DNA from: an uncultured Chitinophaga sp.
Lineage (GTDB): Bacteria; Bacteroidota; Bacteroidia; Chitinophagales; CAIOSU01
Assembly: GCA_964476015.1 (NCBI GenBank)
Contig: CAYYZT010000002.1
Coordinates: forward strand, 1 to 41,924
DNA length: 41,924 nucleotides
Reading direction: 5' to 3'
The notes under the pieces are model-generated. The model had not been told where the DNA came from. It worked only from the letters and a program-made list of their open reading frames with translations, and did no database searches. Below, piece after piece: positions 7,440-23,357 of this stretch. Position numbers and translations under genes: made by a program. The stretch's first letter is position 1. Each line of letters opens with the position of its first letter.

Positions 7440-7507
7440 TTATTTTTTACACTTTTTTGCTTTATTTTTACACTAAATGGTTATTGAAGGTGTAAAAAGG
7501 TGTAAAA
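7440..7507 (+). promoter_or_regulatory. integrase-proximal repeat cluster (candidate arm-type sites or int operator)
   Basis: TTTTACAC occurs at 7445-7452 and 7466-7473. Its inverse GTGTAAAA occurs at 7490-7497 and 7500-7507, and the last copy overlaps the int ATG. The stretch 7440-7477 is repeated imperfectly at 23264-23300. Confidence 0.45.
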
Positions 7508-8637: not shown

Positions 8638-9416
8638 TGGATAAGAGGAAGGCAAAGTTTGTTCGTTCCCATGAATTGTCAATGGGGCTTGTCGGAGTTT
8701 CGGAGGGTCTAGCTCAGGAAATTGAAAAAATGAATATGCGACTTGACCAACCTTATCTGAGTAACGAAGATTTGTCTATAGCAAGGTCAATGGTTAAGCA
8801 ACAGCTTGCACGATTTGAACAACTCGCAAAGATGTATGACGTATGTTATGGCGACTATGTAAAAGATAAGTTCAATTTCAAACCAGTACCTGCGGATTTT
8901 GCTAATTGGTTTTTTGATGGTCTTTCTATTAAGGTGTCACTAAACCCAGACATTCGATTTAGCGCAAAAGATTACTTAGAGTATTGTGCTCTGAAAAAGA
9001 AAGAGTTGGATAGTATTGCCGATACACTAAATAAAAGAGAGGTTCAAAAGCTACTTACTAAGGAGGACAAAAAGGAGATTATAGAATCTCATTTAAAATT
9101 CATGAATGGTGTGAACCCTTCTCAAGAAAGTATACTAACCCCAAATGACTATGAATGGCTTTTATCAAAAACGATAGAATTAGTTGAAATAGGGGAATGC
9201 CCAACTATTGAAAAAGCTATCAGACCTAAAATTTCAGCTACATCAATTAGCTATACATTCTACCTTATACATAAGGAAATCTTTACCACAAGACCCATTA
9301 GAGATGGTTTTATTGACTTCTTAAATAGGGCGTTTAAACAATTTGCCAATACCGAATGGACAACTATAAAAACTAAATTCAGTGTCAAGCATAAAGGATT
9401 TCCGTACCAGCAATAG
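8637..9416 (+). CDS. hypothetical protein (259 aa), translationally coupled to the integrase
   Basis: Its ATG overlaps the integrase stop (TAATG at 8635-8639). It shares the AT-rich codon usage of the island. I recognised no motif. Confidence 0.55.
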   Translation: MDKRKAKFVRSHELSMGLVGVSEGLAQEIEKMNMRLDQPYLSNEDLSIARSMVKQQLARFEQLAKMYDVCYGDYVKDKFNFKPVPADFANWFFDGLSIKVSLNPDIRFSAKDYLEYCALKKKELDSIADTLNKREVQKLLTKEDKKEIIESHLKFMNGVNPSQESILTPNDYEWLLSKTIELVEIGECPTIEKAIRPKISATSISYTFYLIHKEIFTTRPIRDGFIDFLNRAFKQFANTEWTTIKTKFSVKHKGFPYQQ

Positions 9417-9430
9417 GTAACACTTTTCTT

Positions 9431-9459
9431 TCTTACCATATTCTTACCAATATCTTACT
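9431..9459 (+). promoter_or_regulatory. three helically phased direct repeats TCTTAC(C/T) upstream of the xis-like gene
   Basis: TCTTACC occurs at 9431-9437 and 9442-9448, and TCTTACT at 9453-9459. The spacing is exactly 11 bp. The cluster lies 26 nt upstream of the ATG at 9485. Confidence 0.4.
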
Positions 9460-9484
9460 TGCCTTATTTGCTTTCGTAATCAAA

Positions 9485-9796
9485 ATGAAAGCGATGGCAG
9501 ACCTATTAGCATTAGAACAACGCTTGGAGCGAATAGAAAACCTGTTACTTAATCATAAGGAGGTTTTCAATCTAGATGAGGTAGCGCACTATACTAGCCT
9601 ATCAAAGTCATATCTCTATAAACTCACTTCTACAGGCGGAATACCTTGCTATAGACCTAAGGGTAAGCATCTCTATTTCAAGAAGACAGAAATTGATGAA
9701 TGGTTATTATGTAACCGGATTAGGACTAACGAGGAAATTGATTTGGAAGCCTCCTCAAAAGTTACTTTAGGTAAACACTCCTTTAATAAGGCGTAA
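9485..9796 (+). CDS. helix-turn-helix DNA-binding protein, excisionase/AlpA-like (HTH_17 type)
   Basis: The segment FNLDEVAHYTSLSKSYLYKLTSTGGIPCYRPKGKHLYFKKTEIDEWL matches the MerR-superfamily excisionase HTH pattern that is common beside Bacteroidota integrases. Confidence 0.75.
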   Translation: MKAMADLLALEQRLERIENLLLNHKEVFNLDEVAHYTSLSKSYLYKLTSTGGIPCYRPKGKHLYFKKTEIDEWLLCNRIRTNEEIDLEASSKVTLGKHSFNKA

Positions 9797-9817
9797 CTGT
9801 CCCCCATTTTGGCGACA

Positions 9818-10774
9818 ATGATAGATTCCATATCCATATCAAAACAACTCACTCAAGAGGAGCTGAATATCATTCTTAGTAACTTAAAAGTTAAAGAGGA
9901 GTTGGTTAATGCTAATACTGGAGAGGTGCGAGTAAATGCAAAAGTTGACGAGGTCATTTCAATTTATATAAGGGGAATCCACATGCAATTATGGGGGAGT
10001 TTATCCCAGTTTTATATTGGTAGTAGGGTAACATCCTTACGATGGGGTCAAGTGTCAAAAGCTTTTGAAAGGCTCGAAGAGAAGTTAGGGGTAGAATTAG
10101 GCACAAGCTACTTCACTCGACTGGACTTAGAGGCTACCATGTCCTTACCACATAAAACGAAAAGTTATTTTCCCTACCTAGGAGAACATAAACACTATAA
10201 TAGATTCCAAGATAGAACCACCTTGTATTATTCCAACTCATCCAGGCAAATTTGCATTTATGATAAGGGTTTGGCCTTAGACCCTATTGATAGAAGTTTT
10301 ATTCCAGAACACCAATCCCTTATGCGCTTTGAGGCAAGATACAAATGGAGATTTTTAAAGCGGCTCGCCAAGAATAGAGGAGTGGAAAAGATTAGTGTTA
10401 CGAATATACTAGACCCTACTTTTCAGGAAACCCTAATTGGTTTATGGTTGGCAGAATATAATAGTATTCCCAAGTACCATAAACTCCAGTTTAATATGGA
10501 AAAAGTAGGCAGTGTTAAGGAATTAAAACAAGCACTTGAAGCACATGCTATAGATAGCTTAGGCGGGGTGCATGAAGTTATAAGCATGATAGAAAGAGCT
10601 AGAGCAACAAACATTCAACTAGATAGGAAAATTGCAAGCAAAATGAAGTCTACAATAAGGGCATATACACAACAAACTGACATCGCTATCTCTAGCCCCC
10701 ATATAGCAGAACTAACTATTGCCATATCAATAGCGTACATCGAAAACTTACTAAGTATAAATGAAAGCTACTAA
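9818..10774 (+). CDS. rolling-circle replication initiator-like protein (Rep_trans / phage gene II-X-like)
   Basis: Three ordered motifs resemble the Rep_trans signature: FTRLDLEAT, TLYYSNSSRQICIYDKG and LMRFEARYK. The first ATG is at 9818; the listed start at 9809 is a TTG. Confidence 0.5.
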   Translation: MIDSISISKQLTQEELNIILSNLKVKEELVNANTGEVRVNAKVDEVISIYIRGIHMQLWGSLSQFYIGSRVTSLRWGQVSKAFERLEEKLGVELGTSYFTRLDLEATMSLPHKTKSYFPYLGEHKHYNRFQDRTTLYYSNSSRQICIYDKGLALDPIDRSFIPEHQSLMRFEARYKWRFLKRLAKNRGVEKISVTNILDPTFQETLIGLWLAEYNSIPKYHKLQFNMEKVGSVKELKQALEAHAIDSLGGVHEVISMIERARATNIQLDRKIASKMKSTIRAYTQQTDIAISSPHIAELTIAISIAYIENLLSINESY

Positions 10775-11126
10775 AGCTATATTGTTAACAAGATTAAAAG
10801 ATGTGGCTGCCTATCTTATTGAAGGAAGAAGTAGGGAGTTTATAGTGCAATATGGTTCAGAAAACTGGGAAATAGGAGAACGACAAGCTGACAATTATAT
10901 TAAACAAGCCAGAGATCTTATCGCAAAAGAAGTAGTAAATGATGTAAAGTATGACTTTGCCAAAGCTCTTAAGCGGTTTGAATATCTGTACAATCAGTCG
11001 ATTCTGAAAAATGATATTAAAACCGCTATGGCAATAAATAAAGAAATAGCCAATCTACAGGGGTTGTACAAAACCCAGATAGAGCAAAGCGGAGAGGTGG
11101 TATTTATAAGTAACATACCGGATTAG
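10761..11126 (+). CDS. hypothetical protein (121 aa); its position suggests a small terminase or DNA-binding accessory protein
   Basis: It overlaps the Rep-like gene by 14 nt and ends 23 nt before the TerL-like gene. I recognised no motif, so the functional suggestion rests on position only. Confidence 0.45.
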   Translation: MKATKAILLTRLKDVAAYLIEGRSREFIVQYGSENWEIGERQADNYIKQARDLIAKEVVNDVKYDFAKALKRFEYLYNQSILKNDIKTAMAINKEIANLQGLYKTQIEQSGEVVFISNIPD

Positions 11127-11149
11127 GATAAAAAAAGTAACTTTTTTGA

Positions 11150-12505
11150 ATGAGGATTGACTTTAGCCAATACTACCAACCAAAGCTCAAGCAGACCATA
11201 GCCCACAGCACGAGGGCAAAATACCTGCTATTCGCTGGTGCGTTTGGTGCTGGCAAAAGCTGGTTTCTTTGTACGGAAGCCATAAAGAATGCCCTAAAAT
11301 TCAATGGCAATAGGCTGGTCATTGTCAGGAAGGAGTTATCGGTTATGAAGCGCACAATCCTTGTTACGTTCTTTTCCGTATGCCCTCCGCAACTCATACG
11401 CTCCTTTAATCAGAGCAAAATGGAAGTTACTTTTGTCAATGGCTCTGTACTGACCTTTATTGAGGCCAATGTCTCGAAAGACCCGTTACTAAATAAGTTG
11501 AAAGGGCTGGAAATTGGCTGGTTTGGTATTGATGAAGCCAATGAGGTCAATGAGGAGGTATTCAGGATATTGAAAACCCGCCTTAGATGGGTATTGCCCA
11601 ATAATACGAGGCCACGCTACGAGGGTAGGCTAACCTCTAATCCAGAAAATTGCTGGTTAATACCTGCCTTCATACATTCTACTGACCCCAACCAAGTTTT
11701 TATTCAGTCCATCACAACCGATAACTACTCCGAAGATGACGAGTATGTAGTGAATTTGAAGAATGCCTTTAAGGATAGCCCTAACCTGTATAGAAAGTAC
11801 TTGTTAGGGGATTGGACAAATCTTGACAGCATCAATCAGCTTATATCCAATCTGTCAATATCAAAGGCTGCTGCAAACCTTGAAAATGGCTTTGGAACAT
11901 CTATGGGTGTGGATGTGGCAAGGTTTGGAGGCGACAGTACCGTTTTTACGGTGTTACAGGACGGCAATGTGGTTCTAGTGGAGGATTATGTGGAAACATC
12001 CATAAACGAAGTTGTAACCCGTGCTATAGCTCTTATGGAAAAATTTAGCATCACAGCCGATTGGGTCGGAGTTGATGCAGTAGGTATCGGGGCTGGAGTA
12101 GTGGATAACCTTCGTGCAAGTGGCTATTATGTTCAAGAGATACAGGGAGGCGCAAAACCTGCCGAACTTGAAACGGATGAAGCATTCAAACCCCATAACC
12201 TTCGTGCTCAAATGTACTGGGAGCTGAAAAGGGATATTGATGCAGGTAATATTGGTAACATTACACATCCTACCCTAAAGCACGAACTTTCTATCATTCG
12301 CTATGAGATAATGTCTGACAAGACCGTAAAAATCCTTAGTAAAGAAGCATTAAAAAAGCTATTAGGTAAAAGCCCAGACTTTGCTGACAGCCTTGCCTAT
12401 GCGAATTGGGTAAAAACCCATAGAGGGGCGTATCCTTATGCTTTACCCATATGTGGTGGTGCCGACGAAACAGATAGCAATTCCCAATGGGGCTATTGGA
12501 GATAA
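11150..12505 (+). CDS. phage terminase large subunit-like protein (Terminase_6 / PBSX type)
   Basis: It has Walker A (FAGAFGAGKSW), Walker B (WFGIDEANEV) and a coupling motif (LTSNP). The C-terminal RNase-H-like nuclease carries acidic motifs GVDVARFGGDSTVFTV, VGVDAVGIGAGVVD and SPDFADSLAYA. Confidence 0.8.
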   Translation: MRIDFSQYYQPKLKQTIAHSTRAKYLLFAGAFGAGKSWFLCTEAIKNALKFNGNRLVIVRKELSVMKRTILVTFFSVCPPQLIRSFNQSKMEVTFVNGSVLTFIEANVSKDPLLNKLKGLEIGWFGIDEANEVNEEVFRILKTRLRWVLPNNTRPRYEGRLTSNPENCWLIPAFIHSTDPNQVFIQSITTDNYSEDDEYVVNLKNAFKDSPNLYRKYLLGDWTNLDSINQLISNLSISKAAANLENGFGTSMGVDVARFGGDSTVFTVLQDGNVVLVEDYVETSINEVVTRAIALMEKFSITADWVGVDAVGIGAGVVDNLRASGYYVQEIQGGAKPAELETDEAFKPHNLRAQMYWELKRDIDAGNIGNITHPTLKHELSIIRYEIMSDKTVKILSKEALKKLLGKSPDFADSLAYANWVKTHRGAYPYALPICGGADETDSNSQWGYWR

Positions 12506-12594
12506 TAAACGACTAATTCAAAGATGAAATTTGTAAATTTGGGGCAAACTAAAACAAAGTCATTATAGGGTAAGCTAACGATATACATATAGAT

Positions 12595-12756: not shown

Positions 12757-12776
12757 CCACAATTAATGTATCTATT

Positions 12777-14024: not shown

Positions 14025-14064
14025 TAATCTGCTTTTATAAATTGTTCAATACACAATAGATGCA

Positions 14065-14091
14065 TTTGATTTAAATAATTTCCTACTTTTG
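14065..14091 (+). promoter_or_regulatory. possible Bacteroidota sigma-A type promoter for the three-gene operon
   Basis: TACTTTTG (14084-14091) fits the TAnnTTTG -7 consensus and lies 22 nt before the ATG at 14114. TTTG at 14065-14068 is a possible -33 element, but the 15-nt spacing is shorter than the usual ~19. Confidence 0.3.
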
Positions 14092-14113
14092 ACCCTTGCT
14101 AATAATTATAGTT

Positions 14114-16432
14114 ATGGGCTCAAAAGCAACCACTCAAATACCAAAATCCCATCAAAACGAAAGGAAATCAAAAAGGAACTTTGAAGCACTTCTTGATGCC
14201 TATAACATGAGGCTAGCTTTCCCATGGGCTGATAATGATTATGGGATAGATTGCCAAGTTGAGCTTATTAGTCCAATCTTTAATTCGGATAGTTTTCGAC
14301 CCGAGAGCAAGTTCTTTTTAATACAGTTAAAATCTACAGAAAAGCCTAAAGTCGTAGGAGAAAAAATATCGTTTCCTATTCAAGTAAAAAAGGTAATACA
14401 ATGGTTTAGCGCAAATCTTCCGGTAATGTTTGTCCTGAATAACCTTACCGCAAAAACCTTTCATATTCTGTGGATTGATGAAAAACTGATTTCTCAATTA
14501 GATAGCGAGAATCCTAACTGGGTAAACCAAGAGAGTATAACACTGAAAATACCCTTCATCCATGACTTTAACGCATATGGTGCAGAGGCTATAAGGGACT
14601 ATGTGATGACATGGAAAGTGCCTTCACGAAAAATCATTGAGCCAGGCACATATTTTGAGCTAAAGGAGAAATGCATTGAGAATCTGCGCCAATACAAACA
14701 GATTGCTAGCCTTTCCAACTTCTCTTCAGTTAATGCTTCCATAAATGCGTTGGAAAAGCAAACTGAGCAAGCAATTTATCGCATTGCAATAACTGGCATG
14801 TCAAGGGTTGGAAAAAGTACTTTAATCAATAGTCTTTTGTACAGAAAAGATGTTTCCCCAACAGGTTTTTTCCAAACTACCGGAGTTCCTATCCAAGTTA
14901 TTCCAAATAGTATTGAGGCGGTTGACATACTTTTTAAGAATGGCAAGAAAGTAACTAAGCCATTTTCATTTGATGTAATTGAAGAATACGCCTCGCAAAC
15001 AAAAAACGAGGATAACAAGAAGGCTGTTTCTTTGGTTGTAATAAAAATTGCAAATAGGCAATTGGAAAGAGGGGTTTCATTTTTCGATATCCCCGGACTT
15101 GATGACCCCGATGATGAAATTTATGCCTATGCATGGAATACTGTAACAAAAGCTAATGCCATACTGTACTTAATTGATGCTTCTCCTTTTGAAAATGGTG
15201 GCTATATATTTAAAGCAGAGTACAAGAAACATCTACTTGAGTTAGGCCAGTCGCTGGATAAAATATTCCTAGTCTTTACAAAAGTGAATGCCCTCTCAGG
15301 AGATAAGCTAATTCTTTTGAAAGAAAGGGTAATGAAGGACTTGCAAAAACTCAATCTATATGAGAAGGTTTCAAGAAAAGTATATTTTATAAGTGCCGAA
15401 GAAAGCTTAGAAATAAGGACAGGAGGTGAGGGTAAAAGTTTGGACTCCGTTCAACTATTGGAGGATGACTTATGGGGCTATTTGTTAAAGGAAAGCAAAA
15501 TTGGATTAGCGAACCTTGGGAATGTAAACCAACAAATTTTGCAATCCATACAAGATTTTAAGAGTCTCCTTAGTGTAAGAATGATAGATAATCAAAAGAG
15601 GAAGGATATTGAGAAAGCAATGATTACTGTTCGGAATAAAATACCCGAGCTAGTAAAGTTGTATAATACTAAGGAAGACGAAATCAAAACAGGTATAACC
15701 AAGTCCCTTAAAAATAAGAAATATGGATTACTACACCAATTGGAAACCTATTTGAAGTCAATCCCACTTAATGGAGATTTACCAAGCAGCCATCAACTCA
15801 AAACCTATTTAGCTCAAGGTGGCCATCAAGCTATTGAAGAAGCAAACAAGGAATACTTTCACCAACTCAATTTACAGCAAGAGCTAATCCACGGATGGAT
15901 TGAGGATAACTTAAAGCAGGTCAGGGATTTGATTGCCGAAAGTACTGCCCAAAGAATCATTGACTTCTCCGATATTGAGAAGTTTGAATCTCCCTCCATT
16001 GATTTATCCTCTTCATTCGGATTTGGTTTTCTGGCAGGTTTTTTGGCATTTCTTGTAAATCCACCTGCAACAATCGCAGCCGGATTTTTTGCATTTTTTG
16101 GAAACCTCTTATTCTCTGCATCAGACAGAAGAGCCAAAAGAATTAGTAAAATAATGGATGCAGCGAGAAGAAGCTACAACTCTCAATTTCAGAAAATTGA
16201 AGAGGGTTATACTTCTTGTATTGATGAAAACTCTCAGAGAATCCTTGATTTCGCAAAAGACAAGGTTATTCTCTTCTTCAATGACCTCACTCTACAAATG
16301 CAAGATTTAGATACCCCAATATTGCCTAGCGAGGAAAAGCTATATGAGAACTCTTTTGAAAAGCTGGAAAAAGTTGAAATAGTAATAAGAAAGCTAAATA
16401 CAGAGATTAATAACTGGTATTCATCAATTTAA
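14114..16432 (+). CDS. fusion protein: DUF4365-like PD-(D/E)xK nuclease-fold N-domain + dynamin-like GTPase + C-terminal hydrophobic (membrane) hairpin
   Basis: The N-terminus has DNDYGIDCQVELI...FFLIQLKSTEK (D/E/K triad spacing, 14231-14332). GTPase motifs are G1 GMSRVGKST (14794-14820), G3 DIPG (15086-15097) and G4 TKVN (15278-15289). A long helical stalk follows, then FGFGFLAGFLAFLVNPPATIAAGFFAFFGNLLF (about 16015-16115). The first ATG is at 14114; the listed 14096 start is a TTG. Confidence 0.7.
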   Translation: MGSKATTQIPKSHQNERKSKRNFEALLDAYNMRLAFPWADNDYGIDCQVELISPIFNSDSFRPESKFFLIQLKSTEKPKVVGEKISFPIQVKKVIQWFSANLPVMFVLNNLTAKTFHILWIDEKLISQLDSENPNWVNQESITLKIPFIHDFNAYGAEAIRDYVMTWKVPSRKIIEPGTYFELKEKCIENLRQYKQIASLSNFSSVNASINALEKQTEQAIYRIAITGMSRVGKSTLINSLLYRKDVSPTGFFQTTGVPIQVIPNSIEAVDILFKNGKKVTKPFSFDVIEEYASQTKNEDNKKAVSLVVIKIANRQLERGVSFFDIPGLDDPDDEIYAYAWNTVTKANAILYLIDASPFENGGYIFKAEYKKHLLELGQSLDKIFLVFTKVNALSGDKLILLKERVMKDLQKLNLYEKVSRKVYFISAEESLEIRTGGEGKSLDSVQLLEDDLWGYLLKESKIGLANLGNVNQQILQSIQDFKSLLSVRMIDNQKRKDIEKAMITVRNKIPELVKLYNTKEDEIKTGITKSLKNKKYGLLHQLETYLKSIPLNGDLPSSHQLKTYLAQGGHQAIEEANKEYFHQLNLQQELIHGWIEDNLKQVRDLIAESTAQRIIDFSDIEKFESPSIDLSSSFGFGFLAGFLAFLVNPPATIAAGFFAFFGNLLFSASDRRAKRISKIMDAARRSYNSQFQKIEEGYTSCIDENSQRILDFAKDKVILFFNDLTLQMQDLDTPILPSEEKLYENSFEKLEKVEIVIRKLNTEINNWYSSI

Positions 16433-16443
16433 CATTGAAAATC

Positions 16444-17931
16444 ATGGCTTATCAACCTATCGTGAAAGATATAGAGACATCTATTTTGAAGATTAATGAA
16501 CTTCAACTCGCTTCCTCTTTTGAGATAAAAATGGAAGGCCACTATCTTCATAATGCCGTTTTCGAAATTACCAAAGGGAAAAGGCAATATAACTTTTCAT
16601 CAAGTTCGTCTATACCTCATGGCTTGCAAACACATAAAGAACTTCAATTTGATAGGGAAACGCCAATAGAATTGCATAAGACTAATCAATCTTTATTTGT
16701 ATTGGGAAAGCACCTATTTATCAATAACATATCCTACAATGAAGATTTCACATTAAAGATTTTTTCTGGCGGTATTTCAAGTTTCTCCACTGCCACAGAC
16801 TATAAATTGTTTGACAATAAGTTTTTGAGGTTCATTATGCCAGTGGGAGAAAAACATCCATTTACAATTACCGAATTTCAACATCACTATTTAATTTCCT
16901 CAAGCAAAAAGTCCTCAAATTATATTCCTTTAAAAATTTCGGAACAAGAGTTAAATTTTATCGAATATAAGCTTGGTAACCAGTTTTATCTGATTATTGA
17001 TTGTGTGCAGCCAGATTTATTGGTTCAATTTCAGAAGAAATGTTTCAATATTCTCTTGGCTCTAGGTTTTATTAAAGGAAAACTGTTCCATGATGAATGC
17101 TATATAGCAGCCTTTGATGATATTAAAATGGAAGTTCCAGAAAATATTTTGTATAACTCAATGCGAGCATCCGTGAAATCGGGTCAGGCAACGTTCACAT
17201 CAAATCCATATTCAGTTTATCATGACTACGAACTGGAAATGAACGAGGACGGAAAGACAAAACAACAAATGATTGATGAGCTAAATAAAGAGATGATTTT
17301 TTTTCCAATTGCGGTATTCTCTAACCTAGCGACAATGTTTTTTGAGCAAGAAAAGCTCCAGAGGGCAGCACTAATCTACATTCAAAGTCACATTGCTTCT
17401 TTGGAAGTCAGAATTCCTAACTATTATGTCGCTCTTGAAGCCATAACAGGTTTTGTTTCAAAAGAATTATCTACGGAGAAAACATCTTATAACCCAATAA
17501 GAAATAAGAAAATAGCTGACGATTTGATTTCTGAAATTACCACACTAGCCAAAAATAAAAAAGCAGAGATGGGTTTAGGAGATGAAGATTTTAATTTGGG
17601 GATATTATTGAAAAATATTGGAAAATTAAATGCTCCTCCAAATGCAGATAAGCTTTCTGGGGGATTCAGCCATGTAAAATATGAGCTATCGAGAGAGCAA
17701 AAAAGCATCCTTGTCAATCGTAATACATTTTTACATGGTAGCTTTTTAAAAGTTGCTGGAGATGACAACCAATTTAAAGAGGCTTTACATGTAGCATTGC
17801 GTTTGCATCTAATGATAGCGGTGTTGTTTTATAAACTTGCTGGATTTTCAGGGCGGATTATCAATTACGCAGAACTATGGTCACATATTACAGAAAAAGA
17901 TTTAAAAGAGGAAAGGCTTGTTAAAATATAG
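16444..17931 (+). CDS. unknown protein with C-terminal HEPN-like Rx4H motif (candidate RNase)
   Basis: The gene begins 12 nt after the stop of the upstream gene (a TTG at 16435 is even closer). The C-terminal helical region contains LVNRNTFLHGSF (R at 17719-17721, H at 17734-17736), the RNxxxHG form seen in Abi-type HEPN domains. The N-terminal ~330 aa are unassigned. Confidence 0.5.
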   Translation: MAYQPIVKDIETSILKINELQLASSFEIKMEGHYLHNAVFEITKGKRQYNFSSSSSIPHGLQTHKELQFDRETPIELHKTNQSLFVLGKHLFINNISYNEDFTLKIFSGGISSFSTATDYKLFDNKFLRFIMPVGEKHPFTITEFQHHYLISSSKKSSNYIPLKISEQELNFIEYKLGNQFYLIIDCVQPDLLVQFQKKCFNILLALGFIKGKLFHDECYIAAFDDIKMEVPENILYNSMRASVKSGQATFTSNPYSVYHDYELEMNEDGKTKQQMIDELNKEMIFFPIAVFSNLATMFFEQEKLQRAALIYIQSHIASLEVRIPNYYVALEAITGFVSKELSTEKTSYNPIRNKKIADDLISEITTLAKNKKAEMGLGDEDFNLGILLKNIGKLNAPPNADKLSGGFSHVKYELSREQKSILVNRNTFLHGSFLKVAGDDNQFKEALHVALRLHLMIAVLFYKLAGFSGRIINYAELWSHITEKDLKEERLVKI

Positions 17932-17935
17932 AGAT

Positions 17936-19492
17936 ATGGAAACCTCAAAGTTGCTTTCATTTGTCGAAGACCTTTTTCATAAAGAACAATTTGATGAGGC
18001 ACATCTCTTAATCAAGGAAGCTATTGCATCCATCAGTGTTGACTCTAGTTCTGAATCCTTTTTCTACCAAATTAAATTGCATTGTTTGTTGATTGATATT
18101 GGCTGGCGAAATTTGGAAGAGAGTGATTTTAGTGTGGCCATATGCTTTTTTGAGCAAAATGAAGAGAAAATATTAAGCTGCATAGAGAAAGTTAGCTATT
18201 ACTATAATTTAGCTAATGCTAAGGCTGGGGTGAGCAAAGCATATCACAAGAAAAACTTGGGGGTTCATAGTCTTGATGAGACCAAAGCTATCCACCAAGA
18301 ACCCATCCGATTGTATTGGCTTGCCTATAATAATTGCTCAAAGAATTCACGACTACTTCCACAGATATTGATAAATCTTTCCGGTGCATTGGTAGAAGTT
18401 GCTCGACTAACTGAAGCCTTGCAGTTTTTAGACATAGTACTCAGAACTTATCCCACATTTCCAGAAGCATTGGTGTCTAGGGGCGATTTTCTGTATTGGT
18501 GGGATTTAGTTACTAATAGTGCTGATACTGTAGCTCTTAAAGTTCAAACATATGCCTCTTATGATGCTGCAATCAATACTAATGCGTTGCCAAGCTATAT
18601 CCTTGAGAAGTGCATAAATGCAAAGGCAGAGGCATTGCATTCAATGCAGGAGCATGGTTTTGATGCATCCGACATTGAAGAAGAGTTGGTTGAAACGCAA
18701 GTTGAGTTTGATAAGCACTCTAAATATCGACAATATTGTCTCGACAATTTTTTGACCTTAAATGAACACGGTATCTATTGTAAATGCGTGGCTACTGAGA
18801 AAGATGATTTGCAAATAGGTGTAAAATATGCCTTGTTCAAATTAAAGTCGCTACCTCACTTAGAAGTACTGTTAAACAGGATGAAGTCTGAATTTGCACT
18901 TGCTAGATGGCTATATTACCAATCAATATCAAAGGAAACTACTGTCGAAAATGATGTTCTATTTTCAGAGCTTTATGACGGTGAAGCTATCAGCTACCAT
19001 AATGAAATGCAAAGGGCAAGTTTTCGACTTTGCTATGGGATACTTGACAAAATAGCACTTGGAGTTTGTAAATTATACAATCTGGATAGCCACCATATTC
19101 AGTTTGAAACATTTTGGGAAAACAAGAAAAGAAAACCGGAGCTTGACCAAATTAAAAACATCCATTTAAATGCTCTTTATAGCATAGCGTGTGATTTAAA
19201 TTCAAAGACAGGAGAATTGCGCCAATTTAAGTTGTGGCGTAATGACCTAGAACATAACTTTCTGCTTTTAAAGGATAGCTCTAAATTCAATCTGGACATT
19301 TTCGGTATTCATCTTGACAAAGAATTTGTTGAGGTTGTGGATTCAATAGATTTCGAGAAGAAATGCTTGCATTTATTACAGTTGACCAGAGCAGCAATAT
19401 TCAGCTATGTACATTGTGTTCGACTGCAAACTATTGAGCATCCCAATGAAGAAATTGAAAAAAGATCTGTACAAATTGGCTTCAAGGAATAG
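17936..19492 (+). CDS. helical-repeat (TPR-like) protein with C-terminal LA2681-like HEPN domain
   Basis: The ATG lies 4 nt after the upstream stop. The N-terminal half is alpha-helical repeat-like. The C-terminal motif FKLWRNDLEHNFLLL (R at 19238-19240, H at 19253-19255) is the RNxxEH HEPN signature, and a TPR plus HEPN layout is described for the LA2681 family. Confidence 0.55.
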   Translation: METSKLLSFVEDLFHKEQFDEAHLLIKEAIASISVDSSSESFFYQIKLHCLLIDIGWRNLEESDFSVAICFFEQNEEKILSCIEKVSYYYNLANAKAGVSKAYHKKNLGVHSLDETKAIHQEPIRLYWLAYNNCSKNSRLLPQILINLSGALVEVARLTEALQFLDIVLRTYPTFPEALVSRGDFLYWWDLVTNSADTVALKVQTYASYDAAINTNALPSYILEKCINAKAEALHSMQEHGFDASDIEEELVETQVEFDKHSKYRQYCLDNFLTLNEHGIYCKCVATEKDDLQIGVKYALFKLKSLPHLEVLLNRMKSEFALARWLYYQSISKETTVENDVLFSELYDGEAISYHNEMQRASFRLCYGILDKIALGVCKLYNLDSHHIQFETFWENKKRKPELDQIKNIHLNALYSIACDLNSKTGELRQFKLWRNDLEHNFLLLKDSSKFNLDIFGIHLDKEFVEVVDSIDFEKKCLHLLQLTRAAIFSYVHCVRLQTIEHPNEEIEKRSVQIGFKE

Positions 19493-19690
19493 GAACATTT
19501 TCAATAGTATCTAATAAAACACTTCCTTTGAATACTTGCTCGGAACTACATTGATATATCTAGTACTGCCAATTACTTTTTAAATAGTGTCCTGCTAGGT
19601 GGTCGCTTGCACACAGTACATTTTAAAAAGAATTGGTATGCTAGTTGATTTACCCTAACCATTAACTAACTTTACCAGAATAACTAGGGT

Positions 19691-20689
19691 ATGAATCAAA
19701 GTCTCCTTACAAGATTATTCAAAACAATAGACGGTAATGAAGCATCACCTATTGTAAGGATAGCGTACAGTATAATTGAAGATGAAAAGCGTAAAGGTCA
19801 TGTCAAGCTTGCGGAAAAATTAAGAGCGATACTTTCAAGCAATCTAAGTAAAGAACAACAACTCAAGCCAATTCGCTCTTTATCAAAAGAAGGAACTTTT
19901 AAAGTCCCTGTTGATAGACGTTATAGGCTTCCATTAGCTTCCCATGTTGAACATGAACATTTGCGCCATGACATGATTCTCTCTCATTCTGTAGAAGAAA
20001 AAATTGTAAGAATTGAGAAGGAGTATCTAGCTAGGGAACGTTTAGCACACCATGGCTTAAAGCCTCGTAAAAAGATTCTGTTTTATGGTTCTTCCGGCTG
20101 CGGAAAAAGCATGGCTGCTGAAAGAATTGCTTGGGATTTGGGATTACCCTTCTATAAAGTCAGATTCGACTCAATAATCTCGTCATACCTCGGAGAGTCC
20201 GCTGCCAATCTTCAAAAACTTTTTGATAGTTTAGAAGACTTTCCATGTGTTTTGCTATTAGATGAATTTGACATTATTGGTAAGCAAAGAAATCTAGGCT
20301 CTAATGATGTAGGTGAAATCCATAGGATTGTAAATATTTTATTAGGACTCCTTGAAGAATATAGTGGGGAAGGGATATTAATAGCAACAACTAACTTAGA
20401 AGGTAGTTTAGATAAAGCACTTTTTAGGAGATTTGATGATATTATTGAATTACCAAAGCCATCTGACGTTGAAATTCTTGAACTATTAAAAACGTCATTT
20501 TCGGCATTGAAACTTAATAAAAAGATTGACCTTCATACTTATGCAAAGAAGATGGAAGGTTTATCCTATGCTATTGTCGCTAAGATAGCTAGCGATGCTG
20601 CAAAAAAATCAGTAATTCGTTCCAGTACCGTTATAGAGGCCGACGATTTAAATGTTGCGTTGGAAGAGAACTTTACTATCAATCACTAA
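19691..20689 (+). CDS. AAA+ ATPase (classic AAA clade), IetA-like
   Basis: It has Walker A (FYGSSGCGKSMAA, 20087-20110), Walker B (VLLLDEFD), sensor-1 (IATTNL) and an Arg-finger region (ALFRRFD). An S8 protease gene starts 7 nt downstream. Confidence 0.8.
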   Translation: MNQSLLTRLFKTIDGNEASPIVRIAYSIIEDEKRKGHVKLAEKLRAILSSNLSKEQQLKPIRSLSKEGTFKVPVDRRYRLPLASHVEHEHLRHDMILSHSVEEKIVRIEKEYLARERLAHHGLKPRKKILFYGSSGCGKSMAAERIAWDLGLPFYKVRFDSIISSYLGESAANLQKLFDSLEDFPCVLLLDEFDIIGKQRNLGSNDVGEIHRIVNILLGLLEEYSGEGILIATTNLEGSLDKALFRRFDDIIELPKPSDVEILELLKTSFSALKLNKKIDLHTYAKKMEGLSYAIVAKIASDAAKKSVIRSSTVIEADDLNVALEENFTINH

Positions 20690-20696
20690 TATATAA

Positions 20697-23162
20697 ATGG
20701 AGCCCTTCCCGCATTTAAGGTTTCTTCAAAAAATAATTGGTCGACCTCGACTTCATGGAGGTGGTGAGCAAAATGAAAGGTCAGAAGAAAATAAACGTAA
20801 TCGTTCTGGCCATAGTGGCATCCTCTTGGGCAGTGTAGGTAACATTAAGGATAGTTGGGGTGAAGAGTTTGATAATCGGGAGGAACAAGGTCTTGCACCG
20901 ATTGAAAAAGAGGTTGTACCTGTCTTTCTTCAAGTTAATCCTGGTTTAGTTGAAATGGTTGAATTCAACTTACACCAGCTAGGAATTGAGATAATATCGC
21001 AGCAAGACGATGGATATATAATAGGAGCTTCATTAGATGGATTGAGGTCATTAGAGGAAAAAATTAATGGATTCGTCAACCATACCCATGGCACTGGAAG
21101 AATAGCTGAACTATGGGAAATCATATCAGGTGATAGAGCCTTATGGAAACCAGAGCATATATTATCCGAAGAGCTATTTTTGAAATGGCCAGAAATTGAT
21201 GACAATAGAATTTATCACTTAGAAATCTCTATTGCCTTTGATAGACCCATCAGAGCCGAGCCTAGTCCCGATGTTCGGGGATATGCCACTAAGTTAGAAA
21301 GATACCAGCAAGCACTAATTGATAGAGATGAGCAGTTAAGAAGTAGAGAACAACATTTTGAGGATTTCATTCGGCATTATGGAGAAATCACAAGTTCTAT
21401 TATTGAACTGGAAGATAGCTTTGGATGTGAAGTAGCTATAACAGGTCAAGGCTTAAAAGATTTAGTCGTAAATTATCAATTTGTATTTGAAGTATCTGAA
21501 GTTGAAAAAATTGAAGGAGTTATAGGGAATGAGGTAGAGGCCGAGGATTTTGATATTGAAGTAATTCCTCCAACTGAAAACGCTCCTGAGGTTGGGGTAA
21601 TAGACAGTGGGATAATGGAAAATCACAAGTATTTATCCCACGCAATTATCCCAGCAAACTCAGTATCCTACCTTACTGATACTTCAACTGCGGATAAAGT
21701 ATTGGGTGGAGGACATGGTACTAAAGTTGCAGGAGCCATCTTATACCCCAAAGGCGTATCTGTTGTGGAAGCACCATATCAACTTCCTTGTTACATTAGA
21801 AATATCAGGGTACTTGATGAGAATAATAAACTAGTTGATATTTATCCGACAGACCTTATCCATAGAATAGTTCATGATAATACGCCTTGTTCGATATTTA
21901 ATCTCTCTATCAATTCCACTGCTCCCTTTAGACTAAAACACATGTCTTCTTGGGCTGCGATGTTGGATTCTCTAACCCATGACAAAGGTGTATTGTTCAT
22001 AATTTCTGCTGGCAATATAGGCAAACAACAAATCCTACACTATTTATCAAATGGTCAAGAATATCCCTTATTTCTACAAGAACCTAATTGCAGGTTAGCC
22101 AACCCTGCTCAAAGTAGCTTTTCCCTAGTAGTGGGTTCGGTAAACATCGCTACACTCGATAATGAACATTGGGTTTCTTTGGGGAATGAATTGGAGGTAT
22201 CTCCATTCTCAAGAATAGGGACTGGAATTTGGGGTATGATTAAACCTGATGTTGTTGAATATGGAGGTGGTTTGGCTATAAGTAAGAATACAACCCCCAG
22301 TCTTACCGAAAAACCAGAGATTTCCCCCGAGTTGATACGTTCCACTTATCATGGAGGCCATGCTATTGGAAAGGATGCTGTAGGGACATCCTTTTCCACC
22401 CCCAAAGTATCGCACATAGTTTCTCAACTCAAAATGCTTTACCCCGAGGAAAATGTAAACTTACTAAGGGCTCTAGTAGTACAATCCGCAAGATTGCCTC
22501 GTAATTTTTTTGAAGCTCCTGTATTAGACCATATACGCTTTTTCGGATATGGCATACCTCAACTGGAAAGAGCTACTATAAACAATGAGCATCGAATTAC
22601 TTTTTACAACACTGGTCAGTTGAGGGCAGAGGAAGGGCATTTGTACTTGCTTAAAATTCCTGAAGAATTATATGACCCAACAAATGAGTATGATATTTTG
22701 TTGGAAGTTACTTTGGCGTACAGTGCCAAAGTAAGACGCACTAGACAAAAAACGAAATCATATTTAGCTACTTGGTTAGACTGGGAAACATCAAAAATGG
22801 GAGAAACGTTTGGCGAGTATCAAAACTATGCTTTAAGAGAAATTGAAAATACGGCCACTGCGTATGATCGAGATTTACGAAATGGTTTGGAAACTTTTGA
22901 CTGGAAAATAAAGAATCGTTTAGATTCAGGAAGTGTAACTGGTATTAGAAGAAATGACAGCACTGTTCAAAAAGATTGGGCTATCGTAAAGTCTTTTGAT
23001 TTGCCCGAAGAAATTACTTTTTGCATCCGTGGGCATAAAGGTTGGGACAAAAATCGAGAGGAAGTCCCTTACGCACTTGTTGTTTCAATTGAAATACTCG
23101 GTTCTAATATCCCAATATATGAGTCGATTAGAATAGAAAATGAGATTGAGCTACCTGTATAG
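20697..23162 (+). CDS. S8 family (subtilisin-like) serine peptidase with long unassigned N-terminal region, IetS-like
   Basis: The catalytic triad is in S8 order: Asp in VGVIDSGI (21603-21605), His in GGGHGTKVAGAI (21714-21716) and Ser in GTSFSTPKVSH (22389-22391). About 300 aa precede the protease domain. No signal peptide is evident. Confidence 0.8.
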   Translation: MEPFPHLRFLQKIIGRPRLHGGGEQNERSEENKRNRSGHSGILLGSVGNIKDSWGEEFDNREEQGLAPIEKEVVPVFLQVNPGLVEMVEFNLHQLGIEIISQQDDGYIIGASLDGLRSLEEKINGFVNHTHGTGRIAELWEIISGDRALWKPEHILSEELFLKWPEIDDNRIYHLEISIAFDRPIRAEPSPDVRGYATKLERYQQALIDRDEQLRSREQHFEDFIRHYGEITSSIIELEDSFGCEVAITGQGLKDLVVNYQFVFEVSEVEKIEGVIGNEVEAEDFDIEVIPPTENAPEVGVIDSGIMENHKYLSHAIIPANSVSYLTDTSTADKVLGGGHGTKVAGAILYPKGVSVVEAPYQLPCYIRNIRVLDENNKLVDIYPTDLIHRIVHDNTPCSIFNLSINSTAPFRLKHMSSWAAMLDSLTHDKGVLFIISAGNIGKQQILHYLSNGQEYPLFLQEPNCRLANPAQSSFSLVVGSVNIATLDNEHWVSLGNELEVSPFSRIGTGIWGMIKPDVVEYGGGLAISKNTTPSLTEKPEISPELIRSTYHGGHAIGKDAVGTSFSTPKVSHIVSQLKMLYPEENVNLLRALVVQSARLPRNFFEAPVLDHIRFFGYGIPQLERATINNEHRITFYNTGQLRAEEGHLYLLKIPEELYDPTNEYDILLEVTLAYSAKVRRTRQKTKSYLATWLDWETSKMGETFGEYQNYALREIENTATAYDRDLRNGLETFDWKIKNRLDSGSVTGIRRNDSTVQKDWAIVKSFDLPEEITFCIRGHKGWDKNREEVPYALVVSIEILGSNIPIYESIRIENEIELPV

Positions 23163-23263
23163 TTCTATTATTACGATAATGGTAGGTAAATTACCTTTAT
23201 CTTTATCTAGAGAAATAACTGGTGAAATCACTAAGTAAGTTGAGTTTTTCTCATTCTCGTCTT

Positions 23264-23354: not shown

Positions 23355-23357
23355 CTC

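What the first reader, a model, noticed from the sequence alone, without database searches (positions are those of the whole stretch)
14065..19492. Three-gene operon (nuclease-fold/dynamin-like GTPase with membrane hairpin + two HEPN-motif proteins): candidate undescribed abortive-infection system
Seen in sequence:
- Three same-strand ORFs are packed almost without gaps. A stops at 16432 and B starts at ATG 16444 (or TTG 16435). B stops at 17931 and C starts at ATG 17936.
- A TAnnTTTG-like box precedes the operon. It lies inside the AT-rich island, directly upstream of an IetAS-like pair.
- Protein A (772 aa) combines four elements: a D..GID..E..QLKS pattern (14231-14332) with PD-(D/E)xK spacing as in DUF4365; P-loop GMSRVGKST, DIPG and TKVN in dynamin order; a long helical stalk; and a two-helix hydrophobic hairpin (about 16015-16115).
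- Protein B (495 aa) has an unassigned N-terminal region and a C-terminal RNTFLHG motif (17719-17739).
- Protein C (518 aa) has helical repeats followed by WRNDLEH (19235-19255).

Established knowledge:
- Rx4-6H HEPN domains are RNase effectors in Abi, toxin-antitoxin and CRISPR-accessory systems.
- TPR+HEPN is the described layout of the LA2681 HEPN family.
- Dynamin-like proteins form the Eleos (LeoA/LeoBC) defence system.
- DUF4365 is a nuclease-fold module recurrent in defence proteins.

Inference: this combination (one nuclease-GTPase-membrane fusion plus two different HEPN proteins) matches no named system that I know. The architecture suggests a membrane-associated GTPase sensor or scaffold that licenses HEPN RNases. 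I cannot verify novelty without database searches.
Basis: partly seen in the sequence, partly recalled or inferred. Interest (0 to 1): 0.88.

Follow-up and report, generated by a model that had tools for sequence, protein, structure and literature searches.

The report
Three stacked stand-alone defence genes
The three tightly packed genes are real and carry the predicted nuclease–dynamin and HEPN RNase domains, but elsewhere each occurs without the other two, so this looks like a stack of separate candidate phage-defence genes on a mobile island; the uncharacterised nuclease–dynamin fusion is the interesting one.

Summary
Gene A (14114-16432) is a DUF4365/DREN nuclease fused to a BDLP-type dynamin-like GTPase with a conserved hydrophobic hairpin. 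Gene B (16444-17931) has a beta-rich N-domain and an invariant Rx4H HEPN domain, distantly Apea-like. Gene C (17936-19492) is an LA2681 HEPN protein (Pfam E 2e-40). No PADLOC model assigns any of them to a named system. IetAS and a type IIG R-M enzyme follow, all on a low-GC island that starts with an integrase.

The "three-gene system" reading is not supported. In about 50 related loci the A-B-C triad occurs only here.
- Of 26 A loci with downstream sequence, 3 have B adjacent and 3 have C nearby. About a third have a convergent gene downstream.
- Of 16 B loci, 3 have A. Of about 10 C loci, 3 have A.
- Near-identical A alleles carry different downstream genes (B versus a STAND NTPase).

Best reading: a defence island of independent single-gene modules. 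A belongs to an uncharacterised Bacteroidota family of more than 110 protein clusters. I infer that dynamin-type assembly at the membrane activates its nuclease. B probably works like ApeA, and C like a sensor-coupled HEPN RNase. Recurrent A-B and A…C adjacency in the closest relatives leaves a minority chance of cooperation.

The parts
14084..14091 (+). TACTTTTG, a Bacteroidota-type TAnnTTTG -7-like box 23 nt upstream of the ATG of gene A. It is a possible promoter element only.
   Evidence: Found by pattern search. The motif is not enriched in the window (30 matches against 41 expected), so support is weak.
14114..16432 (+). Gene A (772 aa): an N-terminal DUF4365/DREN PD-(D/E)xK-type nuclease fused to a BDLP/mitofusin-class dynamin-like GTPase, with a helical stalk and a membrane hairpin.
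   Evidence: Pfam DUF4365 E 2.1e-11 and Dynamin_N E 6.7e-13. AlphaFold model pLDDT 80. Foldseek best match BDLP 2j69 E 7.5e-18, then IniA, DLP1/2, SynDLP, mitofusins and LeoA. 113 homologous clusters share this architecture.
14225..14602 (+). DUF4365 (DREN) nuclease domain of A, residues 38-163. Putative catalytic residues are E16, D42, D46 and Q71-x-K73 (QxK at nt 14324-14332).
   Evidence: D42, G44, D46, Q71 and K73 are invariant and E16 is present in 49 of 50 homologues. QxK corresponds to the Q62/K64 residues that PMC10810196 proposes as the DUF4365 active site of TmuRE and mutates to make an inactive control.
14795..15289 (+). GTPase motifs of A: G1 G228xxxxGKS235, G2 T255/T256, G3 D325xPG328, and G4 T389-K-V-N392 (nt 15278-15289).
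   Evidence: G1-G3 are invariant in 50 homologues. G4 is (N/T)KxD in 33 of 50 and (N/T)KxN in 17 of 50, including this gene and its close relatives.
16013..16117 (+). Hydrophobic Gly-rich two-helix hairpin of A (residues 634-668, central NPPA turn). It is probably a membrane-inserting paddle.
   Evidence: This stretch contains the most hydrophobic 19-residue windows in the protein. It is conserved in 44 of 50 family members. It falls inside the only low-confidence segment of the model, 611-667.
16444..17931 (+). Gene B (495 aa): a beta-rich N-terminal domain (about residues 1-240) and a helical C-terminal HEPN domain (about 289-470), distantly Apea-like. It is a candidate stand-alone RNase defence protein.
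   Evidence: B itself has no Pfam, NCBIfam or PADLOC hit. It has 75 close homologues and 926 representative clusters with the family profile. HEPN_Apea hits occur in 4 of 32 and 10 of 47 family members. AlphaFold model pLDDT 90.
17719..17739 (+). HEPN Rx4H motif of B: R426-N-T-F-L-H431-G432. The partner acidic residue E332 lies at nt 17437-17439.
   Evidence: R426, H431 and E332 are invariant even in the 20-31% identical superfamily alignment.
17936..19492 (+). Gene C (518 aa): N-terminal helical, TPR-like repeats and a C-terminal LA2681-family HEPN domain (residues 303-496, nt 18842-19423).
   Evidence: Pfam HEPN_LA2681 E 2.3e-40, 138.6 bits against a cut-off of 27. More than 177 homologous clusters; several are named LA2681-family or TPR proteins and carry TPR hits.
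19235..19255 (+). HEPN motif of C: W434-R435-N-D-L-E439-H440 (Rx4H).
   Evidence: W434, R435, N436, E439 and H440 are invariant in 37 homologues.
19691..23162 (+). Context: an IetA (AAA ATPase, 19691-20689) and IetS (S8 protease, 20697-23162) defence pair. It starts 199 nt downstream of C.
   Evidence: PADLOC IetA E 3.1e-74 and IetS E 3.2e-56.
23861..26623 (+). Context: a type IIG restriction-modification enzyme.
   Evidence: PADLOC REase_MTase_IIG, 1239 bits, full length.
7477..12505 (+). Context: the mobile-element backbone at the left end of the low-GC island. It comprises a tyrosine integrase (7477-8637), an HTH_17/AlpA-like protein (9485-9796), a Phage_CRI-like replication protein (9809-10774) and a terminase-large-subunit-like protein (11150-12505).
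   Evidence: Pfam hits. GC drops to 0.33-0.42 against about 0.5 in the flanks. The same backbone (Rep 68.5% identical) carries an 80% identical A with different cargo in L076.

Best explanation
Window 14065-19492 is part of a defence island on an integrase-bearing mobile element. A, B and C are three separate single-gene candidate defence modules. They are packed head to tail and are probably co-transcribed, but they are not one three-component system.

A is the notable gene. It belongs to a conserved Bacteroidota family in which a DREN-type (DUF4365) nuclease is fused to a BDLP-like dynamin with a membrane-inserting hairpin. Proposed mechanism (inferred): the protein sits at the inner membrane; a phage-induced event triggers nucleotide-dependent dynamin-type self-assembly; assembly brings the otherwise inactive nuclease domains together and switches them on, as DREN tetramerisation does in SPARDA filaments. 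The nuclease then destroys incoming DNA at the entry site, or kills the cell.

B is a stand-alone HEPN RNase of an Apea-related family. Its large N-terminal domain probably senses an infection cue and releases RNA cleavage (tRNA or other RNA), as in ApeA.

C is a TPR-HEPN protein of the LA2681 family. It probably uses its repeat domain as a protein sensor coupled to RNase toxicity.

Shown here: the domain identities, the conserved catalytic residues, the independence of genomic distribution, and the defence-island context. Inferred: every activation step and every substrate.
For: Domains and catalytic residues:
- Pfam hits for A and C.
- Structural match of A to BDLP, E 7.5e-18.
- Invariant E16/D42/D46/QxK, P-loop, T255/T256 and DxPG in A.
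- PMC10810196 proposes QxK (Q62/K64) as the DUF4365 active site from an alignment and uses the Q62A/K64A double mutant as an inactive control.
- The DREN nuclease is activated by tetramerisation in SPARDA filaments (PMC12205087).
- Invariant Rx4H in B across a 926-cluster family, with transitive HEPN_Apea hits.
- Invariant RNxxEH in C.

Independence of the three genes:
- B is adjacent to A in 3 of 26 A loci. C is near A in 3 of 26. Both together occur only in the window.
- About 9 A loci have a convergent downstream gene.
- B loci: A is present in 3 of 16 and C in 1 of 16. Other neighbours are RteC, TraG-like, AbiEii, a caspase and an ABC transporter.
- C homologues at 50-57% identity sit alone beside CBASS, mCpol/Cap15, ABC-3C components, transposases and integrases.
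- On NJ trees the B-linked and C-linked A alleles are polyphyletic. L095 (followed by B) and L014 (followed by nSTAND3) have near-identical A.
- L076 has the same element backbone and an 80% identical A, but a 2168-aa NACHT protein downstream.

Defence context:
- IetAS and a type IIG R-M enzyme lie in the window.
- Neighbours of A homologues include GajA, CBASS with HORMA/TRIP13, CapP, pVip-kinase, AbiGi, PIN and STAND proteins.
- Tyrosine integrase is the only neighbour family that recurs widely, in 6 of 27 A loci.

Precedent:
- Dynamin-like proteins defend against phage (DynA, PMC8844932; the two-gene dynamin system of Millman et al.).
- ApeA is a single-gene HEPN defence protein activated by a small ligand (bioRxiv 10.64898/2026.01.26.701840).
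Against: - A-B adjacency recurs in three lineages (window, L001, L095/96). A…C recurs in three (window, L074, L075). In addition, a 690-aa DUF4365 protein sits directly upstream of a 58% identical C homologue. This is more than random placement would give for such rare families, so some cooperation or co-regulation cannot be excluded.
- The 11-nt and 4-nt gaps imply co-transcription.
- Sampling is modest (about 50 loci) and biased towards long contigs.
- No experiment shows defence activity for any member of the A, B or C families.
- The G4 motif of A is TKVN rather than (N/T)KxD, so guanine specificity is uncertain.
- B has no significant match to PADLOC ApeA models, to any solved structure by sequence, or by Foldseek. 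Its HEPN assignment therefore rests on motif conservation and transitive profile hits.
Confidence: 0.6

Rival explanations
1. A-anchored variable-effector locus. A is a conserved membrane sensor or scaffold that works with whichever effector gene is inserted directly downstream (B, C, a STAND NTPase, a PIN protein and so on). A-B-C would then be one variant of a modular two-part system.
For: In 16 of 26 A loci a same-strand gene follows A within about 100 nt, and it is usually effector-like or sensor-like: ApeA-like HEPN, nSTAND3, NACHT, a REase-AAA protein, PIN_12, HNH-like, AbiGi. A-B and A…C recur in the closest relatives. The A-B intergenic sequence is conserved between L001 and L095.
Against: About a third of A loci have a convergent gene downstream and no conserved upstream partner. 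The downstream genes belong to classes that are self-sufficient defence proteins elsewhere (ApeA, Avs/NACHT-like). B and C homologues of equal divergence occur without A. A carries its own effector domain with intact catalytic residues.
Confidence: 0.17
2. One reading: an obligate three-gene abortive-infection system in which the membrane GTPase licenses the two HEPN RNases.
For: Gaps of 11 nt and 4 nt, the same strand, and no terminator-like site between the genes. No named PADLOC system covers the trio.
Against: The triad is unique to this window among about 50 loci of the three families. Each pair is absent in most loci. The closest A homologue (80% identical, same element backbone) has neither B nor C.
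Confidence: 0.06
3. A is not an immune protein but a function of the mobile element itself, for example membrane remodelling or DNA processing during transfer, or exclusion of competing elements. B and C would be unrelated toxin or defence cargo.
For: Tyrosine integrase is the only widely recurring neighbour family of A (6 of 27 loci). The window and L076 share int-HTH_17-Rep backbones with A at the same relative position.
Against: Most A loci have no integrase or Rep nearby, and neighbours are dominated by defence genes. A also occurs beside Gabija or CBASS in contigs that show no element backbone.
Confidence: 0.1

Closest known systems
Bacterial dynamin-like proteins in phage defence: the two-gene dynamin system, which I equate from memory with Eleos/LeoA-LeoBC, and B. 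subtilis DynA
   Same: A has a BDLP-class G domain, stalk and membrane paddle. Foldseek gives BDLP E 7.5e-18 and LeoA E 7e-9. PADLOC gives LeoBC E 7.7e-12 over the G domain. A lies in defence islands. In the dynamin system the P-loop is required for defence.
   Different: [quoted passage not shown] A adds an N-terminal DUF4365 nuclease. The PADLOC hits cover only about 150 residues. DynA is a two-headed housekeeping protein that delays lysis rather than a nuclease fusion (PMC8844932).
DREN (DUF4365) nuclease effector of SPARDA short-Argonaute systems
   Same: The same Pfam domain (E 2.1e-11) with the same QxK signature. In SPARDA the domain is a collateral nuclease switched on by oligomerisation.
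   Different: A has no APAZ domain and there is no Argonaute partner. The proposed oligomerisation engine is a dynamin-like GTPase instead of a guide/target-induced Ago filament. Nuclease activity of A is untested.
ApeA (Gao et al. 2020; mechanism in bioRxiv 10.64898/2026.01.26.701840)
   Same: B is a roughly 500-aa single-gene protein with a large N-terminal region and a C-terminal HEPN domain carrying Rx4H. It sits in variable defence-island contexts. Some B-family members pass the Pfam HEPN_Apea threshold.
   Different: B and 78 other family members tested do not match an ApeA defence model in PADLOC; two distant members weakly hit a model named Cas13-ApeA (E 0.0025). B itself does not hit HEPN_Apea. 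The N-terminal domain of B is beta-rich, whereas the solved ApeA proteins are predominantly helical. Oligomeric state, ligand and RNA target of B are unknown.
LA2681 family of HEPN proteins (Anantharaman et al. 2013, PMC3710099; Pfam PF18733)
   Same: C matches the family model over nearly its whole length (E 2.3e-40) and has the described layout of helical/TPR repeats fused to HEPN.
   Different: Nothing architectural. The family has no experimental characterisation in the searched literature. C is simply a new member.

Membership tests
Dynamin superfamily, BDLP/mitofusin class (gene A) | G domain with G1 P-loop, G2 Thr, G3 DxxG and G4 (N/T)KxD | tested here: met
   Pfam Dynamin_N E 6.7e-13, 49.4 bits against a cut-off of 27. 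G1-G3 are invariant. G4 is TKVN here (D replaced by N, as in 17 of 50 homologues), so base specificity may differ.
Dynamin superfamily, BDLP/mitofusin class (gene A) | Helical neck/trunk bundle and a membrane-binding paddle | tested here: met
   AlphaFold model pLDDT 80 with long helices at 446-608 and 669-769. Foldseek BDLP 2j69 E 7.5e-18, IniA 3.7e-15. Conserved hydrophobic hairpin at 634-668. Membrane binding itself is not testable here.
Two-gene dynamin defence system (Millman et al.; I equate it from memory with Eleos/LeoA-LeoBC) | Operon of two (or three) consecutive dynamin-like genes | tested here: not met
   A is the only dynamin-like ORF in the region. Its neighbours are B (HEPN) and an OB-fold membrane protein.
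Two-gene dynamin defence system (Millman et al.; I equate it from memory with Eleos/LeoA-LeoBC) | Full-length match to the PADLOC LeoA or LeoBC models | tested here: not met
   The LeoBC hit (E 7.7e-12) covers only residues 205-355. The LeoA hit (E 2.7e-5) covers 319-432.
DUF4365 / DREN PD-(D/E)xK-type nuclease (N-terminus of A) | Match to PF14280 with conserved acidic residues and the QxK motif | tested here: met
   E 2.1e-11, 44.4 bits against a cut-off of 24.3. D42, D46, Q71 and K73 are invariant. QxK corresponds to the Q62/K64 residues proposed as the active site of TmuRE.
DUF4365 / DREN PD-(D/E)xK-type nuclease (N-terminus of A) | Nuclease activity | not testable with these tools
   Requires biochemistry.
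SPARDA (short pAgo plus DREN-APAZ) | DREN fused to APAZ and encoded next to a short Argonaute | tested here: not met
   A has no APAZ or Argonaute hit. Only a weak PADLOC Aga_REase hit (4e-5) over the DUF4365 part. None of the island ORFs scanned with Pfam or PADLOC (8637-26623) is Argonaute-like.
HEPN superfamily (genes B and C) | Rx4-6H motif in a helical domain, conserved across homologues | tested here: met
   B: R426xxxxH431 and E332 are invariant in alignments down to 20% identity, within a helical C-terminal domain. C: R435xxxxH440 is invariant and the Pfam HEPN family hit applies. B and C profiles are not detectably related to each other (hhalign probability 0.2%).
ApeA defence family (gene B) | Match to ApeA or HEPN_Apea models | tested here: inconclusive
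   B: no hit. Family members: HEPN_Apea in 4 of 32 and 10 of 47, best E 1.1e-5, just above the gathering score. PADLOC: 0 of 32 with any hit at E 0.1, and among 47 distant members only two weak hits to a model named Cas13-ApeA, E 0.0025. UniRef labels three members 'ApeA N-terminal domain-containing', but no Pfam model hit any of them at E < 0.04 and none of the weak hits was ApeA-related.
ApeA defence family (gene B) | Three-domain, predominantly helical monomer (N-terminal, Mid, HEPN_ApeA) forming a doughnut-shaped oligomer with a ligand pocket | tested here: not met
   The N-terminal 240 residues of the B model are beta-rich, unlike the description. Foldseek against the PDB gave no match below E 0.03. 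Oligomerisation and ligand binding are not testable here.
LA2681 HEPN family (gene C) | Match to PF18733 above threshold, with helical/TPR repeats N-terminal to it | tested here: met
   E 2.3e-40, profile positions 4-202 of 204. Homologues carry TPR hits and are named LA2681-family by NCBI. Family description in PMC3710099.
Conserved multi-gene defence system (the A-B-C triad) | Co-occurrence of the component genes across genomes | tested here: not met
   The triad occurs in 1 of about 50 loci. A-B occurs in 3 of 26 A loci and A…C in 3 of 26. Each gene occurs alone at 50-63% identity to the window protein.

The most novel reading that the evidence does not exclude
Gene A defines a previously undescribed single-protein immune module: a membrane-anchored dynamin-like GTPase whose nucleotide-driven polymerisation is the switch for a fused DREN nuclease. 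The same logic applies in SPARDA filaments, but here a dynamin provides the assembly engine. This would directly link dynamin-type assembly, as in eukaryotic Mx proteins, to a defined enzymatic effector. A further possibility is that A also potentiates the HEPN or STAND genes that repeatedly land immediately downstream of it.
Probability: 0.25. Interest if true: 0.8.

Novelty: new variant of a known kind. Interest (0 to 1): 0.5.

Why it matters
How bacterial dynamin-like proteins stop phages is still unknown: the mechanism of the two-gene dynamin system is unknown and DynA acts only by delaying lysis (PMC8844932).

A family of more than 110 clusters in which a dynamin is covalently fused to a nuclease with a known, oligomerisation-activated relative offers a clear, testable hypothesis for what dynamin assembly can do in immunity. 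It is also a compact single gene to test.

The analysis gives a cautionary example too. Tight operon-like packing inside a defence island does not make a system. Three rare defence genes can be stacked, and their partners are swapped even between near-identical alleles.

B enlarges the ApeA-like HEPN world to a roughly 900-cluster family with a different, beta-rich sensor domain. C is a candidate for the first functional test of the LA2681 HEPN family.

Tried and rejected
- PADLOC, NCBIfam and Pfam on B: no hits.
- Sequence search of the B-family profile against the PDB: only noise, E above 0.6.
- Foldseek of the B model against the PDB: nothing below E 0.03. The weak PilZ and split-barrel similarities of the N-domain were not pursued.
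- hhalign of the B family against the C family: unrelated, probability 0.2%.
- Pfam check of the UniRef label "ApeA N-terminal domain" on P0059, P0061 and P0067: no Pfam model hit at E < 0.04 and none of the weak hits was ApeA-related.
- Scans of viral contigs: no B relatives; only distant dynamins for A; four 31% identical C relatives with neither A nor B.
- tblastn against plasmids: only a remote dynamin for A and three remote hypothetical proteins for B.
- Comparison of the 800-aa middle gene of L074/L075 with B: unrelated. It is a REase-N plus AAA/STAND-like protein.
- Search for att-type direct repeats flanking the island: only a 12-nt exact match and a T-rich segment about 70% similar at 7415-7455 versus 23255-23300. 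This is not convincing.
- Sigma-70 promoter scan: fewer hits than in shuffles, and not appropriate for Bacteroidota.
- Considered and rejected: A as a member of the two-gene dynamin system (single dynamin gene, partial HMM match); A as SPARDA-related (no APAZ or Ago); a pseudogene reading of the TKVN G4 motif (the substitution is shared by a whole subclade).

Full report
**1. The observation**

The three ORFs exist as described.
- A runs 14114-16432 (772 aa).
- B runs 16444-17931 (495 aa).
- C runs 17936-19492 (518 aa).
- All are on the + strand, with gaps of 11 nt and 4 nt. The simple scan found no terminator-like site between them.

They lie in a low-GC stretch (0.33-0.42 against about 0.5 in the flanks) from about 7400 to 26600. 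The stretch begins with a tyrosine integrase next to mnmE. Directly downstream of C it carries IetA/IetS (PADLOC E 3e-74 and 3e-56) and a type IIG R-M enzyme (1239 bits).

The TAnnTTTG box (14084-14091) is present, but the motif is not enriched in the window (30 found, 41 expected).

**2. What each gene is**

*Gene A*
- Pfam assigns DUF4365 (residues 38-163, E 2.1e-11) and Dynamin_N (224-357, E 6.7e-13).
- A search of 5.8 billion proteins found 113 clusters, almost all about 770 aa with the same DUF4365 plus dynamin architecture; those with a source name are from Bacteroidota.
- In a 50-sequence alignment, D42, G44, D46, Q71, K73, the P-loop G228..GKS235, T255/T256 and D325xPG328 are invariant, and E16 is present in 49 of 50.
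- PMC10810196 infers from an alignment that QxK (Q62/K64) is the active site of the DUF4365 nuclease TmuRE of a short-Argonaute system, and uses the Q62A/K64A double mutant as an inactive control.
- An AlphaFold model (pLDDT 80) shows the G domain followed by long helical bundles. The only low-confidence stretch is 611-667.
- Foldseek places the model with BDLP (E 7.5e-18), IniA, Campylobacter DLP1/2, SynDLP, mitofusins and LeoA.
- The low-confidence stretch contains the conserved Gly-rich hydrophobic hairpin (634-668, with an NPPA turn). It is present in 44 of 50 homologues.
- The G4 motif is TKVN. The Asp-to-Asn change is shared by 17 of 50 homologues, so it is a clade feature and not decay.

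*Gene B*
- B has no Pfam, NCBIfam or PADLOC hit.
- It has 75 close homologues. With the family profile it reaches 926 representative clusters, mostly full-length proteins of 470-495 aa.
- R426, H431 and E332 are invariant even at 20-31% identity.
- The link to a named family is transitive. Distant members, some with an N-terminal AIG2/GGACT fusion, pass Pfam HEPN_Apea (best E 1.1e-5); this holds for 4 of 32 and 10 of 47 members.
- No member matched an ApeA defence model in PADLOC; two distant members weakly hit a model named Cas13-ApeA.
- The AlphaFold model is confident (pLDDT 90). It has a beta-rich N-terminal half and a helical C-terminal domain that carries the motif.
- Foldseek and sequence searches against the PDB found nothing significant.
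- The ApeA proteins solved so far are predominantly helical three-domain monomers. They form doughnut-shaped oligomers and are activated by deoxydinucleotides.
- B is therefore ApeA-like in layout and in probable logic, but it is not a demonstrable member of that family.

*Gene C*
- C is an unambiguous LA2681-family HEPN protein (PF18733, E 2.3e-40).
- W434-R-N-x-x-E-H440 is invariant in 37 homologues.
- Homologues show the TPR fusion noted when the family was defined.
- In the searched literature the family appears only in that 2013 survey.

**3. Is it one system?**

This was the central test. I collected loci around relatives of each gene.

*B relatives*
- Twelve species genomes carry a B relative. 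An A relative is adjacent only in L001, and C is never adjacent.
- The neighbours of B there are RteC, a TraG-like ATPase, AbiEii plus DUF6577, a caspase, or unrelated genes.

*A relatives*
- Sixty-one metagenome loci carry an A relative. None has B or C.
- The gene downstream of A is variable: GT8-like, nSTAND3, a PIN_12 giant protein, an HNH-like protein, AbiGi, unknowns, or a convergent gene in about a third of loci.

*Look-ups by exact protein*
- L074 and L075 carry A (66%) – an 800-aa REase-N/AAA protein unrelated to B – C (58-59%) – a 346-aa protein.
- L076 carries A (80%) on the same int/HTH_17/Rep backbone as the window, followed by a 2168-aa NACHT protein.
- L095/96 carry GajA – GajB – A (59.5%) – B (61%).
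- One contig has a 690-aa DUF4365 protein directly upstream of a 58% identical C homologue.
- B homologues at 58-60% identity occur without A.
- C homologues at 50-57% identity occur without A or B. They sit beside CBASS, mCpol/Cap15, ABC-3C components, transposases and integrases.

*Counts*
- A loci with downstream sequence: 26. B is adjacent in 3, C is near in 3, and both occur only in the window.
- B loci: 16. A is adjacent in 3 and C in 1.
- C loci with upstream sequence: about 10. A is present in 3.

*Clustering and trees*
- Clustering all neighbours of 27 A loci shows that only a tyrosine integrase recurs widely, in 6 loci.
- On NJ trees the B-linked and C-linked A alleles are scattered. 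B proteins with A upstream are not monophyletic.
- L095 (followed by B) and L014 (followed by nSTAND3) have nearly identical A proteins. The slot after A therefore turns over quickly.
- A PADLOC scan of 126 neighbour proteins returned strong hits to GajA, type II methyltransferases, pVip-kinase and CapP, among 301 models matched. This confirms the defence-island setting.

**4. Interpretation**

The triad is not a conserved system. The most economical reading is a stack of independent single-gene modules on a mobile island, probably co-transcribed.

A caveat remains. A-B and A…C adjacency recur in the closest relatives more often than random placement of rare genes would give, and the A-B intergenic sequence is conserved between L001 and L095. 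This can be explained in two ways:
- co-inheritance of island segments, with recombination anchored in the conserved A gene;
- or some cooperation between the genes. I give an "A plus variable downstream effector" model about 17%.

**5. Mechanism (inferred)**

*A.* The DREN nuclease of SPARDA is inactive as a monomer and is activated when filament formation tetramerises it. Dynamin-like proteins self-assemble on membranes in a nucleotide-dependent way. DynA clusters at membranes on phage attack (PMC8844932, PMC12998192). The two-gene dynamin system needs its P-loops for defence. I therefore propose that A is a membrane-resident protein whose dynamin-type assembly, triggered by a phage-induced membrane or DNA-entry event, brings the DUF4365 domains together and activates nucleic-acid degradation.

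*B.* B probably works like ApeA. A large sensor domain would gate a HEPN RNase, possibly through a small ligand.

*C.* C probably couples a TPR-type protein sensor to HEPN RNase toxicity.

None of these steps is shown.

**6. Comparison and novelty**

- A is homologous to the dynamin defence proteins (PADLOC LeoA/LeoBC models) and to DynA only in the dynamin module. It fails the defining two-dynamin operon feature.
- A shares the nuclease domain with SPARDA but lacks APAZ and Argonaute.
- I found no paper that describes a DUF4365-dynamin fusion, and PADLOC does not model it.
- A is therefore a new variant of known kinds. B is a distant variant of ApeA-type proteins. C is a new member of a family defined computationally in 2013.

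**7. Verdict**

The domain interpretation is largely right. The system-level interpretation is not supported. Interest is moderate (0.5): the nuclease-dynamin fusion is a worthwhile experimental target, but the headline claim of a novel three-gene abortive-infection system does not hold.

Noticed in passing
window 7477-14024: The island backbone resembles a phage satellite or small integrative element. It has a tyrosine integrase, an HTH_17/AlpA-like protein, a Phage_CRI-like Rep (E 3.7e-5), a terminase-large-subunit-like protein (Terminase_3, E 1.4e-8) and a membrane protein with a tRNA_anti-like OB fold (E 7e-18). L076 has the same order with a 68.5% identical Rep but different defence cargo after A.
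   Followed up: partly
window 15278-15289 (A residues 389-392): The G4 motif of the dynamin-like GTPase is TKVN instead of (N/T)KxD. The Asp-to-Asn change is fixed in 17 of 50 homologues. From my own knowledge, in Ras-like GTPases this substitution shifts specificity towards xanthine nucleotides, so this subclade may not be strictly GTP-specific.
   Followed up: partly
L011 9503-11455, and proteins P0069-P0073 and P0312-P0318: A branch of the B family carries an N-terminal AIG2/GGACT (gamma-glutamyl cyclotransferase-like) domain fused to the ApeA-like body (about 650 aa). This is an unusual enzyme-HEPN fusion.
   Followed up: no
JGI sample 3300050046, 8124-nt contig (no DNA retrievable): A 690-aa protein with DUF4365 but no recorded dynamin hit lies 9 nt upstream of a 58% identical C homologue. 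It is either a divergent A or a different DUF4365 fusion, and it bears on possible A-C coupling.
   Followed up: no
L074 8541-13479 and L075 12329-17330: A conserved block of an 800-aa REase-N (HSDR_N_2) plus AAA/STAND-like protein, an LA2681 HEPN protein and a 346-aa unknown protein, with overlapping or 3-nt junctions, lies downstream of A. It may be a separate STAND plus TPR-HEPN system.
   Followed up: partly
L009 7728-10004: A 758-aa caspase-like (Peptidase_C14, E 1.6e-14) protein overlaps the start of a B homologue in Brumimicrobium glaciale. This is a possible protease-HEPN pair.
   Followed up: no
B model, residues 1-240 (window 16444-17163): The confident beta-rich N-domain of B gives only weak Foldseek similarities, to PilZ c-di-GMP receptors (YcgR, MrkH; E 0.03-0.3) and to FMN-binding split barrels. 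This hints at a small-ligand-binding sensor domain, but the matches are not significant.
   Followed up: no
window 7415-7455 versus 23255-23300: T-rich segments about 70% similar lie just upstream of the integrase and just downstream of IetS. If they are att remnants, the type IIG R-M gene (23861-26623, higher GC) would lie outside the integrase element. The similarity is weak and low-complexity.
   Followed up: partly
L075 3840-9629: A CBASS operon of the kind I would call type III (SMODS, bacterial HORMA, a AAA ATPase, a SAVED effector) with an HTH/M78 (CapH/CapP-like) regulator pair lies immediately upstream of, and divergent from, the A homologue.
   Followed up: no
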